Virus genome (UHGV): UHGV-1378817
DNA length: 64,000 nucleotides
Strand: one strand, 5' to 3'
Origin: a virus
The notes under the pieces are model-generated. The model did no database searches. It saw only the letters and a program-made list of their open reading frames with translations, and was not told the DNA's origin. The position numbers and the translations under genes were made by a program. The first letter of the stretch is position 1. Every line of letters starts with the position of its first letter. This document shows, one piece after another, positions 3,284-46,454 of the stretch.

Positions 3284-4327
3284 TTAAGCATAAGATATAG
3301 TGATCCATTGACCATTTACAAGTTTTTGGATAGCACCTGTCCAGTAATCACCTTGATAAGGGTGTTTATAAGCGTAGTTACCAGAGCACATCACATGTCC
3401 AGGGTAGACTCTTGACTCTCTGTAGGTGGTTTTGAAACGATTTGCTATCCTTACATCATCAACCCCTCTACTGGGCATAGGGATAGTAAGGTTACCACTA
3501 CCGTCTGCGCTGTTACCATTTACCCTGCGGACCACGTTTCTTCCACCAACTGTTGCATATTGGCCCCTAACGGTTTCATCGTTACAATCAACTCTTTCAC
3601 CTATTTGAGCGCTTCCGCAGGATTGTTGTCCGTTGACAGTTGCTCTTGGTATCGTGACCGCATTGGCATTTGCAGAGGAACTTTTTGCATCATTGCATTC
3701 AAGATTTCCTTGGATAGCCAGTCTTGCACGGTTGGCAGTTATAGCATTGAGCTTCATAGCCGAAAACACAGGCTGCCCACCAGAAGGTTGAAATCTCCAA
3801 CGGAACCCGTCTATTTGGTGAGAAGGATCATCAAGATCTGTGCCGTCAGCACCACCGATGTTGTCCATAATCCAGAAATCCATTGTCGTCTTGTCTGGAG
3901 TTATGGTGGTATATATTGCCGCACTATCTGTTGACGCAGATGCAAACTCGATTCTTTGAAGACCTAAAGTTTGAGTCTGAGTCATTATGTCTCCAGACTT
4001 GTCAACATATAGATCGTCCATTTCTTCAGGCGAGTATACATTGAGAACTTGACGTGCAGCAGCTTTGTCTGGAACGTCTGCTAGATTATTAGTGACCCTT
4101 AAGAATCTATTATCCCATCCTGGGACAACATCTTCTGTTAGATGCTTTAACCACGCAGAAAGCATGTGAAGTTCAAAGTTAACAACTTCACATGCCATTC
4201 TTTGTGTCATATCCCAACCTTTCAATCTCTCTTCTTTTTTTGGTTGAGACTTATTCAACTCTCCCGTATTTTCAAGCACAACATCCTGATTGGCCCAAAT
4301 ATCAAGAGGGATAACTGGTTTAGTCAT
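3284..4327 (-). CDS. tail fibre protein, paralog A
   Basis: N-terminus (PLDIWA..QDVVL.NT....GWD) and C-terminus (QKLVNGQWITISYA) match 5342..6382; GDIMTQTQTLGLQRIEF resembles the GDTMTG motif of phage fibres; start taken at ATG 4327 (AGGAGA 5 nt upstream) rather than GTG 4330. Confidence 0.7.
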   Translation of the reverse strand: MTKPVIPLDIWANQDVVLENTGELNKSQPKKEERLKGWDMTQRMACEVVNFELHMLSAWLKHLTEDVVPGWDNRFLRVTNNLADVPDKAAARQVLNVYSPEEMDDLYVDKSGDIMTQTQTLGLQRIEFASASTDSAAIYTTITPDKTTMDFWIMDNIGGADGTDLDDPSHQIDGFRWRFQPSGGQPVFSAMKLNAITANRARLAIQGNLECNDAKSSSANANAVTIPRATVNGQQSCGSAQIGERVDCNDETVRGQYATVGGRNVVRRVNGNSADGSGNLTIPMPSRGVDDVRIANRFKTTYRESRVYPGHVMCSGNYAYKHPYQGDYWTGAIQKLVNGQWITISYA

Positions 4328-4357
4328 CACGTTCTCCTGAGAAAATTCCTTAGGACT

Positions 4358-42750: not shown

Positions 42751-42827
42751 TGGTCTCCACGGAGTGATTCGAACACTCGACCTCCTGATCCCAAATCAGG
42801 CGCTCTACCAAGCTGAGCTACGCGGAG
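42751..42827 (-). tRNA. tRNA-Pro (anticodon UGG)
   Basis: Hand-folded cloverleaf: acceptor CUCCGCG/CGUGGAG (one G-U), D-arm GCUC..GAGC, anticodon loop UUUGGGA, T-arm GAGUG-UUCGAAU-CACUC, encoded CCA. Confidence 0.8.
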
Positions 42828-42838
42828 TATTTATTATT

Positions 42839-42913
42839 TGGTGGCCCTGGGTGGAATTGAACCACCGTCTGGCGATTATGAGTCGCTTGCTTGAACCTTC
42901 CAGCTACAGGGCC
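42839..42913 (-). tRNA. tRNA-Met (anticodon CAU; elongator Met or Ile2, G1-C72 paired)
   Basis: Acceptor GGCCCUG/CAGGGCC perfect, anticodon loop CUCAUAA, T-arm GGUGG-UUCAAUU-CCACC, encoded CCA. Confidence 0.75.
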
Positions 42914-42914
42914 A

Positions 42915-42990
42915 TGGTGCTGATAGCAGGACTCGAACCTGCAACCTATTGATTACAAATCAATTGCACTACCAATTGTGCTACATCAGC
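42915..42990 (-). tRNA. tRNA-Thr (anticodon UGU)
   Basis: Acceptor GCUGAUG/UAUCAGC (one G-U), D-arm GCAC..GUGC, anticodon loop UUUGUAA, T-arm GCAGG-UUCGAGU-CCUGC, encoded CCA. Confidence 0.8.
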
Positions 42991-42995
42991 AAAAA

Positions 42996-43094
42996 GGTGC
43001 TAGGTGATGGAATCGAACCACCTATGTATTCAACGACTACCTCGTCTATTTTCAGGATTAAAAATCCTCGCCCTTGCCAAAGGGCTTACCTAGC
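42996..43094 (-). ncRNA. atypical tRNA-like gene (98 nt), possible pseudo/variant tRNA with UUU anticodon-like loop
   Basis: Perfect 7-bp acceptor GCUAGGU/ACCUAGC, D-arm GCCC-UUUGGCAA-GGGC, T-arm GGUGG-UUCGAUU-CCAUC, but 3' end is CC not CCA and there is a 30-nt extra region between anticodon and T arms. Confidence 0.35.
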
Positions 43095-43100
43095 TCAGTA

Positions 43101-43189
43101 TGTTGACCATGTTGCTAGTCGGCGATGACGACTGTAACATTTGATAATCCGGTTCTGCTTCCGGCTTTCGCTTAATTACAAGGTCAACA
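43101..43189. ncRNA. candidate structured RNA element inside tRNA cluster
   Basis: 8-bp terminal helix UGUUGACC...GGUCAACA encloses about 72 nt with two internal hairpins (AGUCG/CGACU and CCGG/CCGG); does not fold as a canonical tRNA by hand. Confidence 0.2.
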
Positions 43190-43192
43190 ATA

Positions 43193-43283
43193 TGGCTGAG
43201 GGTAATGGAATCGAACCATCATCGAGTCATCCTCAACGGGACGGTTTTCAAGACCGCTTGAGCACCATTGCTCCCTACCCTCA
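43193..43283 (-). tRNA. tRNA-Ser (anticodon UGA), type II
   Basis: 91 nt; acceptor UGAGGGU/ACCCUCA, anticodon stem GCGGU/ACCGU with loop CUUGAAA, long variable arm, T-arm GAUGG-UUCGAUU-CCAUU, discriminator G, encoded CCA. Confidence 0.7.
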
Positions 43284-43397
43284 TTTATAAACAATACTGA
43301 TAATGACACTGATTTTCGAGCAGTTAGTGACTAGTATAAACGACGATAAATATCAATGCCATTATCTGTATGATTTATGCATTTAAAACTATAAATT

Positions 43398-43484
43398 TGG
43401 TGGGGAGTGGTGGAGTCGAACCACCCGAGTCGCAATGACAATAGATTTACAGTCTACACCGCTACCTCTACGGGATAACTCCCC
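43398..43484 (-). tRNA. tRNA-Tyr (anticodon GUA), type II
   Basis: 87 nt; acceptor GGGGAGU/ACUCCCC, anticodon arm GUAGA-CUGUAAA-UCUAU, long variable arm, T-arm GGUGG-UUCGACU-CCACC, encoded CCA. Confidence 0.8.
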
Positions 43485-43488
43485 AATT

Positions 43489-43563
43489 TGGCACCCCGTA
43501 CTGGACTCGAACCAGTGTCAACGGCTTAGAAGGCCGCTGCTTTATCCACTAAGCTAACAGGGC
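43489..43563 (-). tRNA. tRNA-Arg (anticodon UCU)
   Basis: Acceptor GCCCUGU/ACGGGGU (two G-U), D-arm GCUU..AAGC, anticodon arm GCGGC-CUUCUAA-GCCGU, T-arm CUGG-UUCGAGU-CCAG, encoded CCA. Confidence 0.75.
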
Positions 43564-43621
43564 ACTGGGTGGCTTTCTTTTACACCTTAGCCGCCAGAAA
43601 AGGTGGGAGACCATGTTTACA

Positions 43622-43650
43622 ATATTACACTGTTAAGCAAAGTTTGTCAA
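43622..43650 (-). promoter_or_regulatory. near-consensus sigma70-type promoter for the tRNA cluster (TTGACA-17-TAATAT)
   Basis: Minus strand reads TTGACA AACTTTGCTTAACAGTG TAATAT; predicted start about 50 nt upstream of tRNA-Arg 5' end. Confidence 0.5.
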
Positions 43651-43659
43651 GAAAATATT

Positions 43660-43998
43660 TTAGCTATTGCCAACAGGTTGTATTTCTGTGGTAAATGGCA
43701 TAAAAGGTGCTGGTTTTTCAGCCTCTTCTACTACCACCTCTTCCTCTTCACCAAACATCTCATCATATTCTTCCTGCATTCGGTCTGCCTTATCAAGAAC
43801 ATACTCTGCAATGCTTTGACGAATATTTTGTTTGGTTTTCGGGTCCAACATCAGCTCTCTTAAAACTTTGTGAGCTTCTGGAACCATCGCTATAAAAGAT
43901 TCCTTCATATCAAGGATGTTCTTCTCTAGCTGAATGGCGTTGGACTCCTCTTTCAGAGGTCTGCCTCTACGGCGACGCTTTTTAGTTGTATCCGCCAT
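43660..43998 (-). CDS. small AT-hook-type DNA-binding protein (112 aa), start revised
   Basis: ATG at 43998 with GGAGGA SD; N-terminal KKRRRRGRPLK (AT-hook-like GRP core); acidic C-terminus; track ORF extends upstream without SD. Confidence 0.45.
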   Translation of the reverse strand: MADTTKKRRRRGRPLKEESNAIQLEKNILDMKESFIAMVPEAHKVLRELMLDPKTKQNIRQSIAEYVLDKADRMQEEYDEMFGEEEEVVVEEAEKPAPFMPFTTEIQPVGNS

Positions 43999-44039
43999 GT
44001 TTCCTCCATTATCACGTGATAGGTGGATTTTATCATAGC

Positions 44040-44300
44040 AAATACTGATTGTCAAGTTCGCCGCAGGGTGGTATTCCCTGCGACTTGCCCAGCGTCCTGG
44101 ACCAGCAAGACCCAACAAGTGGGTTTTCCAGCTATACCCATTACCGCACACAGGCTCGACCTTATTACAGGTTGGCTGGGGTCACATCGTCATGTGCTGG
44201 CTGCCCCTACCATTTTAAGTGTGGTGCACTATCAAGCCCTCTAAGGGGAACTCAGCCTTCTCCGAACCCTGTTTCAAAGCATCCGGAGATAAAGCCATCA
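44040..44300. other. GC-rich non-coding island (candidate structured RNA or acquired fragment)
   Basis: Visibly GC-richer than flanking AT-rich phage DNA; local hairpin GCAGGG-UGGUAUU-CCCUGC; overlapping plus-strand ORFs lack SD/start context. Confidence 0.2.
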
Positions 44301-44346
44301 AATTCATCTTTAAATTGGATATTCATCATAATACACGAAAACAACC

Positions 44347-44589
44347 TCATTGTAAAGCACAAATAAATAAAACATACTTAATTTGTTTGTTATCAGGCTC
44401 AGGGTAGAAGTAGAAGATCTTGCTATCACCGATCTGAACACCACCATCCCAACAGCATAGCCCATAACCCGTATTCATACAAGCTAAGTCGTTGGCAAAA
44501 TCTATTGCATCATCCAGTGCACGAAATTCACCTTCATCTTCTAAATAATCCTCATTCATGGAACGAAAAACGAGCTTAACCTTAAACAT
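44347..44589 (-). CDS. hypothetical protein (80 aa)
   Basis: ORF from track; acidic, Cys-containing; no motif recognised. Confidence 0.35.
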   Translation of the reverse strand: MFKVKLVFRSMNEDYLEDEGEFRALDDAIDFANDLACMNTGYGLCCWDGGVQIGDSKIFYFYPEPDNKQIKYVLFICALQ

Positions 44590-44665
44590 AGCATTACCTG
44601 TAGACCTCGTAAGTTAAAATTGTATCACATCATATTGCAGATCTTATCAGGTAACATTATTTTTG

Positions 44666-44875
44666 TCAACAGATTCCGGCCTTATCTCGCCTGTCTGCGT
44701 ATTCTTTAATCGCAACCTCCTCGGCATGGGTGACTAAATCTTCAAAGTAACTCTCAAGCTCCTCGTCAATGTCAGGAAACCAACTCTTTTTCCTGTCAGT
44801 GTGAATCGCAGACTTGTTGAATTTATTACAGTTCTTTGCTACCGGATTGTTCATTAATCGCCCCTCAGCGTTCAT
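44666..44875 (-). CDS. hypothetical protein (69 aa)
   Basis: ORF from track, overlaps upstream gene end by 11 nt. Confidence 0.3.
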   Translation of the reverse strand: MNAEGRLMNNPVAKNCNKFNKSAIHTDRKKSWFPDIDEELESYFEDLVTHAEEVAIKEYADRRDKAGIC

Positions 44876-45443
44876 AGTAAATCTTATTTAACATTACCTC
44901 ATCCTTTGCAGAGAGAATACCGAGATATGCATCACCGAACCTACCTGCAACAACCTCTACATGATACATAACTTCGTTAATATCGTCAAGAGTGATAACT
45001 GGATGACCGTATCTCTCTGAGTATTGTCTCAGAGTGCGATGTAGGGAATCATCATCGTAGGCAGACTTTTTAATATCACAAACACGACGAATAGCCTTGA
45101 TGTCGAAAAACCCTGTGCGATACCAACCAAGAAAAAGGTTTCGTACAGTGTCAACACCTACATCAACACCGTCAAGAACCTTATCTACAAGATAGCTGTC
45201 ATCCTTTGGACCTGCTTCCTTAGTTCGAATGTAGTTGCCATCTTTTCCAGGTGACAGCTCCTTCTCATCACCAACCTGAATGCCATCATTTGGCGGTGTT
45301 AACCACTTATCCGGATGCTTACGATCACGAGCGTTAGAATGATTACGCTGGAAACCTGGCTTCCACTTGAAAGTTTTCTCCATCTGTTCTTCATTCTGAT
45401 AACGTTTTGCAATCTTTTCACGGTCATCTTTGCGTGGACTCAT
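44865..45443 (-). CDS. hypothetical protein (192 aa)
   Basis: ATG with GAGGAGG SD; basic N-terminus; first gene downstream of the long non-coding region. Confidence 0.45.
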   Translation of the reverse strand: MSPRKDDREKIAKRYQNEEQMEKTFKWKPGFQRNHSNARDRKHPDKWLTPPNDGIQVGDEKELSPGKDGNYIRTKEAGPKDDSYLVDKVLDGVDVGVDTVRNLFLGWYRTGFFDIKAIRRVCDIKKSAYDDDSLHRTLRQYSERYGHPVITLDDINEVMYHVEVVAGRFGDAYLGILSAKDEVMLNKIYYER

Positions 45444-45539
45444 AACTACCTCCTCTTCAAGTTATAGAAAAACTCACTGTATCGCTTTGTAACGAGCTTT
45501 TCTATCAAACTGGTGCGATTGCCTTACCTGGTATAGTTT

Positions 45540-45820
45540 ATATAGCTGTGGAGCGATTTAGGTGCCTTCTTGTCCGTTTCCACACATAAACTTCATCCAA
45601 GCTCGCGCGGGAGACTCTCAACCGACTCCTTACGGCGCTGGCAAGCTTTCGTCGGTGGTCCACATCAGTGCTCGGCCTTTGGCCTGCGCTATCGCTTCGC
45701 TCCCACACATGTTAACAGACCTGCATGTATGCACTTCTGTTATTGTGTGCACCAGGGAGGCCCGGCATCTCGCCCCTCGTAGGCGAGTGCCAATGAAGGG
45801 CCGACACTACCCATAGTAAG
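45540..45820. other. GC-rich non-coding island (candidate structured RNA)
   Basis: GC-rich block within an AT-rich intergenic region; plus-strand ORFs 45562..45816 and 45570..45782 lack SD and look like composition artefacts. Confidence 0.25.
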
Positions 45821-45846
45821 TAATAAATTTAAAACATGGTACTTAG

Positions 45847-45904
45847 GATCTAGTATATTCTACATAAGTTAAGTATATGTACTTAGTACCATAAGTACTA
45901 GATC
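45847..45904. repeat. 9-bp inverted repeat (GATCTAGTA ... TACTAGATC) spanning an AT-rich tract
   Basis: Arms at 45847-45855 and 45896-45904 separated by 40 nt of AT-rich sequence containing repeated GTACTTAG. Confidence 0.4.
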
Positions 45905-45946
45905 TTTTATTTTTTATTATTTAGTTATTTTAGTTATATTCTTTAT

Positions 45947-46029
45947 GTGTCCGTATCACGGACAGTTAGTGTCCGTATTACGGGCAGATGTGTCCGCGTG
46001 ACGGACAGTAGTGTCCGTATCACGGACAG
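45947..46029. repeat. four phased dyad-symmetric iterons (candidate operator array or origin iterons)
   Basis: GTGTCCGTATCACGGACAG at 45947, variants at 45969 and 45990, exact repeat at 46011; each has arms TGTCCGT/ACGGACA; spacing 22, 21, 21 bp. Confidence 0.6.
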
Positions 46030-46103
46030 TTACTAACCTCTGTTCCATAGCGAACATAAAACATACGAATCCTTATAGTACAGATATTTAAGTTTTTACT
46101 GGT

Positions 46104-46454
46104 CTAACCAGTTGTTGACATTCGAATAACCTCTTCTGGTGGCAAAACTTTGGAAAATGTGCATCTTTTACCTCTCCCTTGTGTGGATATTTCAACCACT
46201 CCTGCACATTCTAAAGTTTTAACGCACGCTGCTGCTTTTGTTTTCTTTATCCCAACATCTGCTGCAATTTTCCTTGTGCTGGGTGTGAAGCGTGAACTTC
46301 CTCCAAGCTTATACCAGTTGTGCAGGTAGCAGTATACGATCTTGTCATACAAGTCAAGAACAACAACCTCCCCAGTTGTGTCATTCAAAACTTTTGACAT
46401 AGACAGTATTTCAAGGGGGACTTTAAGATATAGCAGCTTATCCCCATCTTTCAT
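46104..46454 (-). CDS. putative helix-turn-helix DNA-binding protein (116 aa)
   Basis: Segment SSRFTPSTRKIAADVGIKKTKAAACVKTLECAGVVEI resembles an HTH/winged-helix recognition unit; iteron array lies 75 nt downstream of its stop. Confidence 0.45.
   Translation of the reverse strand: MKDGDKLLYLKVPLEILSMSKVLNDTTGEVVVLDLYDKIVYCYLHNWYKLGGSSRFTPSTRKIAADVGIKKTKAAACVKTLECAGVVEISTQGRGKRCTFSKVLPPEEVIRMSTTG

What the first reader, a model, noticed from the sequence alone, without database searches (positions are those of the whole stretch)
44040..45820. Two GC-rich non-coding islands in an AT-rich context
Segments around 44040-44300 and 45540-45820 are conspicuously GC-rich relative to the surrounding phage DNA, contain stable local hairpins, and carry only composition-driven ORFs with no ribosome-binding context. 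They could encode structured non-coding RNAs or be horizontally acquired fragments.
Basis: seen in the sequence. Interest (0 to 1): 0.45.

Follow-up and report, generated by a model that had tools for sequence, protein, structure and literature searches.

The report
Two conserved structured non-coding phage elements
The two GC-rich patches in this rV5-like coliphage are conserved, non-coding, hairpin-rich elements: one carries an undescribed 47-base RNA motif also present in T4 and other enterobacterial phages, usually beside tRNA genes, and the other is shared with small plasmid-like elements that look like satellites of this phage group.

Summary
Island 2 is the most GC-rich 200-nt stretch of the 64-kb window (0.60, z 4.4). 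Island 1 is among the top five (0.555, z 3.2). The window is a Vequintavirus (rV5-like E. coli myophage).

The ORFs inside the islands lack the third-codon-position bias seen in the neighbouring genes. No Rfam family, tRNA or tmRNA matches either island.

Island 1 (about 44300 to 44056, minus strand) is a multi-hairpin RNA locus. It is built around a 47-nt three-helix core at 44179-44133, which has covariation support. The same core occurs in T4 itself, in about 540 T4-like records, and in phi92-like, Pylas-like and roughly 47-kb phages. Outside the T4-likes it lies within 1 kb of tRNA arrays on the same strand, in some phages with its own promoter or terminator.

Island 2 (45820-45540) follows a small Rep-like winged-helix gene, four phased palindromic repeats and a conserved AT-rich stretch. 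Two of its hairpin modules recur, with compensatory stem changes, in 13-kb E. coli plasmids. Those plasmids carry homologues of rV5-like structural genes but, as annotated, no terminase or portal gene.

Function is unproven for both islands. My best guess is a stable protein-binding small RNA for island 1 and a cis-acting origin- or leader-linked element for island 2.

The parts
44056..44300 (-). Island 1: multi-hairpin non-coding RNA locus lying between ORF75 and the ORF74 promoter.
   Evidence: GC 0.54. The minus strand folds better than the plus strand (-93.4, z -1.86, against -78.5, z -0.73). No codon-position bias. Conserved in about 119 rV5-like genomes.
44133..44179 (-). 47-nt three-helix core motif. 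It consists of P1 (variable), P2 ACCU-GUAAUA-AGGU, junction CGA, P3 GCC-NNN-G(Y)GC and junction GGUAA.
   Evidence: Covariance model R1 scores 67.3 bits (E 1e-19) and this is the only copy in the window. On 33 distinct sequences, 90.9% of cells are paired, 6 pairs show double changes, and 0 of 500 shuffles reach the observed values.
44178..44207 (-). P0 hairpin domain 5' of the core (GGGG ... CACAU-GACG-AUGUG ... CCCC).
   Evidence: The same architecture occurs with different sequence in T4-type A (GGGAA/UUCCC with CCUCAU/AUGAGG), in L022 (GGGAG/CUCCC) and in L056 (GGAAC/GUUCC with CUACG/CGUAG).
44260..44288 (-). 5' hairpin CUCCGGA...UUCGGAG.
   Evidence: In the divergent L003 a G-C pair becomes G-U while the putative mini-ORF takes non-synonymous changes. 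The hairpin is absent from L056, where a promoter sits at that position.
44062..44124 (-). Three 3' hairpins: ACCCA-CUUGU-UGGGU, CUUGC..CCAG-GACG-CUGG..GCAAG and CGCAGGG-AAUACCA-CCCUGCG.
   Evidence: L003 has compensatory changes (A-U to U-A in the first hairpin, C-G to U-A in the second) and L033 has a wobble change.
44328..44356 (-). Sigma-70-like promoter TTTACA-17-TATTAT that could start the island-1 RNA near 44321.
   Evidence: Promoter scan, 10 of 12 matches. Conserved in the rV5-like sequences. Consensus match only.
44027..44055 (-). Strong sigma-70-like promoter TTGACA-17-TAAAAT (with TG extension) for ORF74, marking the 3' boundary of island 1.
   Evidence: 11 of 12 matches. Conserved in L056 as TTGACA-17-TAAACT. 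Annotated as P74 in rV5.
45540..45820 (.). Island 2: multi-hairpin non-coding element; strand and molecule unresolved.
   Evidence: It is the highest-GC stretch of the window. It folds equally well on both strands (z -2.1 and -2.7). ORF78 inside it shows no coding signature.
45759..45802 (-). Island 2 module A: long hairpin GGCCC..GCA CUCGCC-UACGAGG-GGCGAG UGC..GGGCC.
   Evidence: Plasmid CP020521 has UCA/UGA and CUCUCC/GGAGAG at the same places, which is two compensatory G-C to U-A changes.
45604..45665 (-). Island 2 module Z: AUGUGGACC-[ACCGAC-loop-GUCGGU]-UGAGAGUCUCCCGCGCG. This is the part best conserved with the plasmids.
   Evidence: BLAST gives 85% identity to four E. coli plasmids. The stem is GCUGCC/GGCAGC in the plasmids (three double changes) and GCCGAC/GUCGGU (a G-U pair) in L007/L163. 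In CP134895 it is replaced by another 8-bp hairpin.
45821..45947 (.). Very conserved AT-rich stretch with short palindromes, between the repeats and island 2.
   Evidence: Only 7 variable columns per 100 among 10 genomes, against 26 to 36 per 100 in the flanks. GC 0.32-0.36. The scan found no sigma-70 consensus here.
45948..46028 (.). Four phased palindromic repeats (TGTCCGT-N3-ACGGACA, about 21-22 nt apart), acting as operators or iterons.
   Evidence: Sequence and regex. Copy number is 3 or 4 among the rV5-like phages.
46104..46454 (-). ORF79: a 116-aa winged-helix protein, the likely binder of the repeats.
   Evidence: PHROG 12838, named 'replication initiation protein', E 8.5e-80. It also has weak hits to PHROGs 8102, 9088 and 22534, which the plasmid Rep also hits. 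Pfam HTH_36 is below its cut-off.
42751..43563 (-). Array of seven tRNA genes downstream on the same strand; this is context for island 1.
   Evidence: ARAGORN and Rfam.

Best explanation
The two islands are separate, conserved, non-coding structured elements. They are not junk and they are not genes for proteins.

Island 1 is a small-RNA locus read on the minus strand, the same direction as the flanking early genes and the tRNA array. The RNA is about 170-260 nt long. It consists of a 5' hairpin domain, a 47-nt core of three helices with almost invariant junction and stem bases, and three 3' hairpins. This architecture and its conservation are shown.

By inference, the island-1 RNA is made with, or next to, the phage tRNAs as a stable small RNA. 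The invariant core would then be a docking site for a conserved protein or RNA partner of enterobacteria or their phages, possibly one linked to tRNA or RNA metabolism.

Island 2 is a string of GC-rich hairpins. It lies directly after a Rep-like winged-helix gene, four phased binding-site repeats and an AT-rich stretch. Two of its modules are shared with 13-kb plasmid-like elements, which place them after their own, different, iterons and before their rep operon.

By inference, island 2 acts in cis, as single-stranded RNA or DNA, in starting replication or in controlling the downstream operon. On this reading it is the handle through which helper phage and satellite respond to the same factor.
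For: Non-coding status: the codon-position test; no Rfam, tRNA or tmRNA match in either island.

Island 1 core:
- Model R1 finds one copy in the window at 67 bits.
- The covariation test on 33 distinct sequences gives 0 of 500 shuffles reaching the observed values. The P1 closing pair is AU 20, CG 5, UA 4, UG 4, with no unpaired cell.
- P2 and P3 each keep pairing through double changes in L064, L060b, L003 and L062b.
- G-U pairs and the fold asymmetry between strands point to the minus strand.

Island 1 distribution: T4 itself, about 543 further records that are mostly T4-like, IMG/VR phages of 46-96 kb, and Klebsiella phage Pylas and phi92-like phages.

tRNA link: in 8 non-T4 loci and in the window, the motif lies within about 200-750 nt of tRNA genes on the same strand, and in L064 it lies inside the array.

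Signs of a discrete RNA gene: L056 has a strong promoter immediately upstream, and in L057 an intrinsic terminator follows the motif.

Island 2:
- Context next to a Rep-like gene, repeats and an AT-rich stretch.
- Homologous modules in five plasmids and two metagenome contigs, with five double compensatory changes and one wobble change.
- Three-hairpin modules repeated within the plasmids differ by compensatory changes.
- The plasmid Rep and the phage ORF79 hit the same winged-helix PHROGs.
- The plasmids encode homologues of proteins encoded in the window: 50%, 43%, 26% and 24% identity.
Against: No expression data were available, so transcription, RNA ends and stability are all inferred.

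Island 1:
- No partner or ligand is identified.
- In T4-like phages the motif is about 6 kb from the tRNA cluster and always sits upstream of vs.8. That arrangement fits a cis-regulatory leader as well as a small RNA.
- The window has no terminator after the RNA.

Island 2:
- Both strands fold equally well.
- One tested pair favours the opposite strand in several genomes.
- Part of the middle is deleted in rV5 itself.
- ORF79 has a single winged helix and its sites are palindromes, which is as typical of a repressor and its operators as of an initiator and its iterons.
- No origin has been mapped in this phage group, as far as I found.
Confidence: 0.55

Rival explanations
1. Island 1 is a cis-acting leader, riboswitch-like or protein-operated. 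The core would sense a ligand or protein and control the gene downstream: vs.8 in T4-like phages, ORF74 in rV5-like phages.
For: In T4-like phages the motif is always just upstream of vs.8 and is followed by two conserved hairpins and the ribosome-binding site. Some T4-like genomes carry two tandem copies (L060, L062), as some riboswitches do. In L057 a terminator follows the motif and then a gene. The core, a small junction with invariant unpaired bases, looks like an aptamer.
Against: In the window and in L056 a strong promoter for the downstream gene lies after the element, so the element is not in that gene's shortest leader. Downstream genes differ between lineages, and vs.8 and ORF74 are unrelated. 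In several phages the motif sits among tRNA genes. I found no alternative pairing that would hide the ribosome-binding site or form an anti-terminator.
Confidence: 0.2
2. Island 2 works only at the DNA level, as part of the replication origin. Its hairpins would form in unwound single-stranded DNA and serve as a priming or helicase-loading signal, like the single-strand initiation sites next to plasmid origins, or would stabilise an R-loop primer.
For: It lies adjacent to a Rep-like gene, phased repeats and an AT-rich stretch in the phage, and next to iterons and a rep gene in the plasmids. The fold is equally good on both strands. Hairpins are kept by compensatory change, which requires a single-stranded state. 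A satellite that must be copied by the helper's replisome would benefit from carrying the helper's loading site.
Against: No origin has been mapped. ORF79 with its palindromic sites may be a repressor and operator set. The plasmids lack the phage repeats. Some G-U pairs in the gene-sense strand are also compatible with RNA. The middle of the island is dispensable in rV5.
Confidence: 0.3
3. Island 2 is the packaging recognition site (pac or cos) of the phage. The 13-kb elements, which have no annotated terminase gene, would have copied it so that they are packaged by the helper.
For: The plasmids have no annotated terminase or portal gene, yet share this non-coding element with the phage. Known satellites such as P4 carry their helper's cos site (my own knowledge).
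Against: For the rV5-like phage LL12, read analysis places a 459-bp non-permuted terminal repeat at 104,966-105,424 (PMC6658697). Island 2 lies near 64.8-65.0 kb in that record, about 40 kb away. Compensatory changes in stems are not expected for a double-stranded protein-binding site.
Confidence: 0.05
4. The islands are inert remnants, mosaic joints left by recombination between phages, and their GC content and hairpins have no function.
For: Phage tRNA regions are mosaic. The islands vary about as much as neighbouring genes within the genus. Part of island 2 is deleted in rV5.
Against: The core motif is nearly invariant across unrelated phage families while its flanks differ completely. Helices are preserved by double changes. 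The orientation is always that of the neighbouring genes.
Confidence: 0.05

Closest known systems
T4 stable RNAs species 1 and 2 (rnaC, rnaD)
   Same: They are phage-encoded small structured RNAs of unknown function placed beside tRNA genes on the same strand (annotation).
   Different: No similarity was found: model R1 has no match in rnaC or rnaD. In T4 the island-1 core lies about 6 kb away, between denV and vs.8.
ROOL and GOLLD large RNAs (Rfam families)
   Same: They are structured non-coding RNAs often found in phages near tRNA genes (PMC12286853 abstract and my own knowledge).
   Different: They are 500-800 nt long and ornate. Their Rfam models do not match either island, even at E up to 10.
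Small three-way-junction riboswitch aptamers such as the purine riboswitch
   Same: They share the layout of a closing helix plus two hairpins with conserved junction bases, and can occur as tandem copies.
   Different: P2 and P3 are only 3-4 bp, the P3 loop is free to vary, and the stem sequences themselves are invariant. There is no shared expression platform or consistent downstream gene, and no Rfam riboswitch match.
Iteron-type origins with an adjacent AT-rich and GC-rich segment or single-strand initiation signals (RK2 oriV, lambda ori, the R1 G-site, the G4 complementary-strand origin); from my own knowledge
   Same: The order is the same as at island 2: initiator-like gene, phased repeats, AT-rich stretch, then a GC-rich hairpin-forming segment. 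The plasmid versions contain three-hairpin units.
   Different: No sequence similarity was tested or is known. The phage repeats are palindromes, ORF79 has only 116 aa, and origin activity is unproven.
Helper-satellite sharing of a cis element (P2 and P4 cos; cos-type SaPIs); from my own knowledge
   Same: A small element that lacks key virion or packaging genes carries a non-coding segment homologous to one in a large lytic phage whose structural genes it partly mirrors.
   Different: Here the shared segment is not at the reported genome ends. The small element is a plasmid with its own Rep and iterons, and no helper dependence has been shown.

Membership tests
Any Rfam 15 family | A covariance-model score at or above the family's gathering threshold. 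| tested here: not met
   Only tRNAs reach threshold in the window. At E up to 10 over 43550-46150 there are only weak chance-level hits. The best, rli43, scores 23.9 bits against a cut-off of 100 and lies mainly over the AT-rich stretch. The T4-like loci also give none.
tRNA or tmRNA | A cloverleaf or tmRNA detected by ARAGORN or RF00005. | tested here: not met
   All seven tRNAs lie at 42751-43563; none lies in either island.
Group I or II intron with an internal ORF (the two islands as intron halves) | An intron core recognised by Rfam, a homing-endonuclease or reverse-transcriptase ORF, and an interrupted host gene. | tested here: not met
   There is no intron hit. ORF77, ORF76 and ORF75 have no endonuclease or RT domain. 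The two islands occur independently in other replicons.
Riboswitch | A conserved aptamer, an expression platform with mutually exclusive pairings, and a consistent regulated gene class. | tested here: inconclusive
   There is an aptamer-like core with covariation. vs.8 is consistently downstream in T4-likes. No platform was found, and in other lineages the neighbours are different genes or tRNAs.
T4 rnaC/rnaD stable RNAs | Sequence or structure similarity to rnaC or rnaD. | tested here: not met
   A search of T4 59-75 kb with R1 hits only 64,856-64,902 and not rnaC or rnaD.
Iteron-type replication origin | An initiator gene next to phased direct repeats and an AT-rich unwinding region. | tested here: inconclusive
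   ORF79 matches PHROG 12838, named 'replication initiation protein'. There are four repeats about 21-22 nt apart and a stretch of 32-36% GC. However, the repeats are palindromic and the protein has a single winged helix.
Iteron-type replication origin | Demonstrated origin activity. | not testable with these tools
   This needs marker-frequency analysis, two-dimensional gels or a plasmid replication assay.
Packaging site (pac/cos) | A position at or near the physical genome ends or next to the terminase genes. | tested here: not met
   The LL12 terminal repeat is at 104,966-105,424 (PMC6658697), while the island-2 homologue is near 64.8-65.0 kb.
Host-derived fragment (REP/BIME or another E. 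coli sequence) | Similarity to E. coli chromosomal DNA. | tested here: not met
   A search of 5,426 complete E. coli genomes gave no chromosomal match, only four plasmids. The core 50-mer gave no match at E up to 10.

The most novel reading that the evidence does not exclude
Island 1 carries a new and widespread class of enterobacterial-phage RNA. It would be a 47-nt junction motif, present even in T4, that binds a specific host or phage factor tied to tRNA biology, for example as a decoy against tRNA-targeting defence or as a sensor.

Island 2 would be the shared recognition element through which a previously undescribed family of plasmid-borne satellites exploits rV5-like helper phages.
Probability: 0.3. 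Interest if true: 0.8.

Novelty: new variant of a known kind. Interest (0 to 1): 0.62.

Why it matters
T4 and its relatives are among the best-studied viruses. A covariation-supported RNA motif sits unannotated in T4, inside the annotated start of vs.8, and recurs in at least five other enterobacterial phage lineages beside tRNA genes. It gives a concrete new target for work on what phage tRNA clusters and their companion RNAs do, a question open since the T4 species 1 and 2 RNAs were found.

The island-2 link exposes a set of 13-kb E. coli plasmids. They carry capsid, tail tape-measure, tail-completion and baseplate-like genes related to those of rV5-like phages, together with a shared non-coding element. 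If they are satellites, they would be the first reported for this therapeutically used phage group, and island 2 would be the place to look for the helper-satellite handshake.

Tried and rejected
- Rfam at gathering and at permissive thresholds gave nothing real. ARAGORN found nothing in the islands.
- Protein coding was rejected by the codon-position test. In addition, the divergent L007/L163 and the plasmids change the ORF78 residues non-conservatively while keeping the stems.
- The idea that the two islands are halves of one intron around a homing-endonuclease gene was rejected. The ORFs between them have no such domains and the islands occur separately elsewhere.
- Host origin was rejected.
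- RNAalifold's inner helix (GUA with UGC) in the core was rejected because several lineages would have A-C there. It was replaced by P2 and P3, which covary.
- A candidate helix in island 2 (GGAC with GUCU) was dropped because about half of the genomes mismatch.
- A link of the T4 copy to T4 oriC rests on rough proximity only. oriC is described as near rI.-1 (PMC3016281), about 5 kb from the motif. I did not pursue it.
- The packaging-site reading for island 2 was weakened by the published termini.
- Collection scans for island 2 gave little. The gapped pattern in genome contigs returned 9 chance hits in GC-rich genomes. The 18-mer in metagenomes returned 111 stretches, of which only 6 passed my flank filter for true homologues. 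One IMG/VR hit (L006) lies inside a 482-aa ORF and is chance.
- The 192-aa ORF has no relatives outside the genus, so it could not be used to reach distant loci.
- DnaA-box-like and CsrA-like (GGA in hairpin loops) resemblances were noted by eye but not tested statistically.
- Literature searches found no description of either element or of the plasmids.
Full report
**What the window is.** The region 43600-46100 is 97-99% identical to about 120 Vequintavirus records, the rV5-like E. coli myophages. All genes here run on the minus strand. In transcription order they are:

- RNA ligase 1, polynucleotide kinase and a phosphoesterase;
- ORF79, 116 aa (46454 to 46104);
- four palindromic repeats (46028-45948);
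- an AT-rich stretch (45947-45821);
- island 2 (45820-45540);
- ORF77, 192 aa; ORF76; ORF75;
- island 1 (44300-44056);
- a strong promoter (44055-44027);
- ORF74;
- seven tRNA genes (43563-42751).

**The observation.** The mean GC of 200-nt windows is 0.44 (sd 0.036). Window 45601-45800 is the richest in the whole window (0.60, z 4.4). Window 44061-44260 reaches 0.555 (z 3.2). Both islands fold more stably than dinucleotide shuffles on the minus strand (z -1.8 to -2.1).

Among 10 aligned rV5-like genomes, the real genes change mostly at third codon positions: ORF77 23/8/54, ORF75 1/0/8, ORF74 3/0/10. The ORFs inside the islands do not: ORF78 7/14/7, the + strand 84-aa ORF 7/18/10, the + strand 105-aa ORF 9/6/10.

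**Known RNA families.** Rfam 15 finds only the tRNAs at gathering thresholds. At E up to 10 it finds nothing credible. ARAGORN finds nothing in the islands.

**Island 1, shared core.** A BLAST search with island 1 hit 662 phage records. Of these, 119 are rV5-like and match full length. The rest match only 45 nt, at 91-95% identity, and are mostly T4-like phages of Escherichia, Shigella, Yersinia, Salmonella and Citrobacter. In those genomes the match lies in the spacer between an internal-head-protein gene (or denV) and vs.8.

Pattern scans of IMG/VR recovered further, more divergent copies in contigs of 46-47, 70, 75, 90, 96, 117 and about 150-177 kb. The 70-kb contig is Klebsiella phage Pylas. 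Related segments occur in phi92-like phages of about 150 kb and in coliphages of about 47 kb. None is annotated as an RNA feature.

**Island 1, structure of the core.** The copies align without difficulty. Read 5' to 3', the core consists of:

- P1, a closing helix of 3-5 bp whose sequence differs between lineages (CCA/UGG, CCCU/AGGG, CUGGU/GCCAG and others);
- P2, the hairpin ACCU-GURNNA-AGGU;
- the junction CGA;
- P3, the hairpin GCC-NNN-G(Y)GC with a freely varying triloop;
- the invariant junction GGUAA;
- the 3' strand of P1.

On 33 distinct sequences, 90.9% of pair cells are standard pairs and six of the eleven pairs show changes on both sides. None of 500 column shuffles reaches the observed values. 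Sliding the partners by one to three columns lowers pairing to 25-47%.

The P1 closing pair is A-U in 20 sequences, C-G in 5, U-A in 4 and U-G in 4, and it is never unpaired. P2 changes A-U to G-C in L060b. In L064, P2 changes U-A to A-U at one position and A-U to G-U at another. The middle pair of P3 is C-G in most sequences, G-C in L003 and U-A in L060b. The frequent G-U pairs would be C-A mismatches on the other strand.

A covariance model of the core (R1) finds exactly one copy in the window, at 44179-44133 on the minus strand (67.3 bits). It finds none in island 2 and none in the plasmids. In T4 itself it finds one copy, at 64,856-64,902 on the complement strand. That position is inside the annotated N-terminus of vs.8. 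The longer T4 ORF is not conserved in relatives, where vs.8 starts at the downstream ATG, so the T4 start is probably over-extended.

**Island 1, the rest of the RNA.**

- A hairpin domain lies 5' of the core. It has an outer helix, an asymmetric internal loop and an inner hairpin. The domain recurs with different sequence in T4-type A phages, L022, L056 and the window. Simple hairpins take its place in the 46-70 kb phages (GAAUG/CAUUC against GAGUG/CACUC).
- Three hairpins lie 3' of the core in the rV5-like phages. They show compensatory or wobble changes in the divergent L003 and in L033.
- A 30-aa mini-ORF overlaps the 5' part and is annotated in some genomes. It is cut to 6 codons in L056 and takes non-synonymous changes in L003 that keep a hairpin intact.
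- The minus strand folds clearly better than the plus strand (-93.4 against -78.5 kcal/mol; z -1.86 against -0.73).

**Island 1, context.** In every non-T4 locus where tRNA genes were found, the motif lies on the same strand as the array. It is about 200-750 nt away in L051, L053, L054, L056, L057, L061, L067 and the window, and between two tRNA genes in L064. L070 had no tRNA gene in the 3.3 kb held.

In L056 a strong promoter (TTGACA-17-TATACT with a TG extension) sits directly upstream of the conserved RNA, and a second promoter for the ORF74 homologue follows it. In L057 an 11-bp intrinsic terminator follows the motif. In Pylas the motif lies in a non-coding stretch of about 900 nt after the tRNA array, between roughly 20-bp stems that bracket other small modules, one of them tRNA-like. 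Two T4-like lineages have tandem copies.

These features fit a discrete small-RNA gene that travels with tRNA clusters. The fixed position before vs.8 in T4-likes keeps a cis-regulatory reading alive. vs.8 and ORF74 are unrelated and neither has a known function.

**Island 2, context.** ORF79 matches PHROG 12838, which is named 'replication initiation protein' (E 8.5e-80). It also weakly matches other initiator PHROGs. Its Pfam HTH_36 score is below the cut-off.

Downstream of ORF79 lie four copies of TGTCCGT-N3-ACGGACA, about 21-22 nt apart. Some genomes have only three copies. A stretch of about 125 nt at 32-36% GC follows, and it is the best-conserved part of the whole 2.5 kb, with 7 variable columns per 100. 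Island 2 comes next. Its middle part, 18 nt of one hairpin, is deleted in rV5 and in A147.

**Island 2, relatives.** A search of 5,426 complete E. coli genomes gave no chromosomal hit. It did hit four plasmids of 13.3-13.7 kb, one of them assembled as a 39.6-kb trimer. PLSDB added two more, and metagenomes added two contigs of 13.9 and 15.5 kb.

In these elements the homologous segment lies in a non-coding region of about 2.2 kb. It sits downstream of their own iterons, which differ from the phage repeats, and upstream of a promoter and an operon that includes a 288-aa O-like or DnaD-like initiator.

Two modules are shared with the phage:

- Module A (window 45802-45759) is found only in CP020521. 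It differs by two compensatory G-C to U-A changes.
- Module Z (45665-45604) keeps its loop and flanks, but its stem is ACCGAC/GUCGGU in the window, GCCGAC/GUCGGU in L007/L163 and GCUGCC/GGCAGC in the plasmids. That amounts to three double changes. In CP134895 an unrelated 8-bp hairpin takes its place.

Between these modules the plasmids carry one to three units of three small hairpins. Each unit is preceded by UGUGUGGG, and the units differ from each other by compensatory changes. The phage has three UGUGUGG-like copies on the same strand. A single-stranded form of the segment is therefore under selection.

Which strand, and whether RNA or DNA, is not settled. Both strands fold equally well (z -2.1 and -2.7), and the wobble evidence is mixed.

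**The plasmids.** Four of their proteins have homologues encoded in this window:

| Plasmid protein | Identity to the window homologue |
|---|---|
| 267-aa protein annotated 'baseplate' | 50% |
| tail-completion / Neck1-like protein | 43% |
| tape-measure protein | 26% |
| major capsid protein | 24% |

No terminase or portal gene is annotated. They look like plasmid-borne satellites, or reduced relatives, of rV5-like phages. I found no paper describing them.

A packaging-site role for the shared element is unlikely. The reported terminal repeat of the rV5-like phage LL12 lies about 40 kb from its island-2 homologue (PMC6658697).

**Interpretation.** The following are shown:

- both islands are non-coding, conserved and structured;
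- island 1 contains a new, widespread motif with covariation support and a consistent strand;
- island 2 shares covarying modules with plasmid-like elements related to this phage group, and in both replicons it sits next to an initiator-like gene and repeats.

The following are inferred:

- island 1 yields a stable small RNA whose invariant core docks a conserved partner, perhaps one linked to tRNA or RNA metabolism;
- island 2 acts in cis in replication initiation or operon control, and is the element through which phage and plasmid respond to a common factor.

The main rivals are a riboswitch-like leader for island 1 and a purely DNA-level origin signal for island 2.

**Novelty.** Neither element matches a described family. 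The kind of element, structured non-coding RNA beside phage tRNA genes or a hairpin-rich segment beside iterons, is familiar. I therefore rate the finding as a new variant of a known kind, with moderate to high interest. The reasons are that the motif is present in T4 itself and that the plasmid link points to an undescribed helper-satellite pair.

Noticed in passing
L004, L005, L039, L040, L041, L098, L118 (E. coli plasmids NZ_CP020521, NZ_CP043822, CP148565, NZ_CP035869, CP134895 and two metagenome contigs): These circular elements of 13.2-13.9 kb (plus one 15.5-kb metagenome contig) encode an O-like initiator. They also encode capsid, tape-measure, tail-completion and baseplate-like proteins that are 24-50% identical to proteins encoded in this window, but no annotated terminase or portal. 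They are probably plasmid-borne satellites of rV5-like phages. One record is an assembled trimer.
   Followed up: partly
L072 5857-5903 (T4 NC_000866 64,856-64,902, complement): The island-1 core motif lies inside the annotated N-terminus of T4 vs.8. Relatives start vs.8 at the downstream ATG, so the T4 start codon is probably annotated too far upstream.
   Followed up: partly
window 43284-43390, minus strand, between tRNA-Tyr and tRNA-Ser: A stem of about 16 bp (ACAGAUAAUGGCAUUG ... CAGUGUCAUUAUCAGU) encloses about 45 nt. Nearly the same stem arms bracket small RNA modules in Klebsiella phage Pylas (L053 10413-10530 and 10634-10730). It may be a processing site or a mobile module.
   Followed up: no
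window 43095-43190, minus strand: Another non-coding spacer inside the tRNA array has a long-range stem (UGUUGACC ... GGUCAACA).
   Followed up: no
window 42996-43094, minus strand: This is an unusual 99-nt tRNA. ARAGORN reports a four-base anticodon, Rfam scores it only 35.5 bits, and other records annotate it as tRNA-Lys(UUU). It has long D and extra arms.
   Followed up: no
window 45948-46028: The number of palindromic repeats downstream of ORF79 varies between 3 and 4 among rV5-like genomes, by whole 21-nt units.
   Followed up: partly
window 45821-45947: This AT-rich stretch is the most conserved part of the locus. It holds nested short palindromes (GATCTAGTA ... TACTAGATC; GGTACTWAG repeats) but no sigma-70 consensus. 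It may be a phage-specific promoter or an unwinding element.
   Followed up: no
Upstream of window 46454; annotated in related records L031-L038: RNA ligase 1, polynucleotide kinase/phosphatase and a phosphoesterase (an RNA-repair set) lie immediately upstream of the ORF79, island and tRNA block.
   Followed up: no
L060 5093-5250 and L062 9021-9179: Some T4-like genomes of 172-177 kb carry two tandem, diverged copies of the core motif upstream of the vs.8 homologue.
   Followed up: partly
T4-like loci (for example L008 about 4290-4340) and L051/L053 5' hairpin loops: Hairpin loops next to the core repeatedly contain GGA motifs (GAUACAUGGAUGA, CCAAGGAAUGG, AGCGGAUGAAA) that resemble the CsrA-binding consensus as I recall it. 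This was not tested statistically.
   Followed up: no
PLSDB record CP057073.1 (137,565 bp): A record deposited as an E. coli plasmid has the length of an rV5-like phage genome (137,565 bp) and matches island 2 like the phage records. It is probably a complete phage genome, suggesting a carrier state or contamination in that culture.
   Followed up: no
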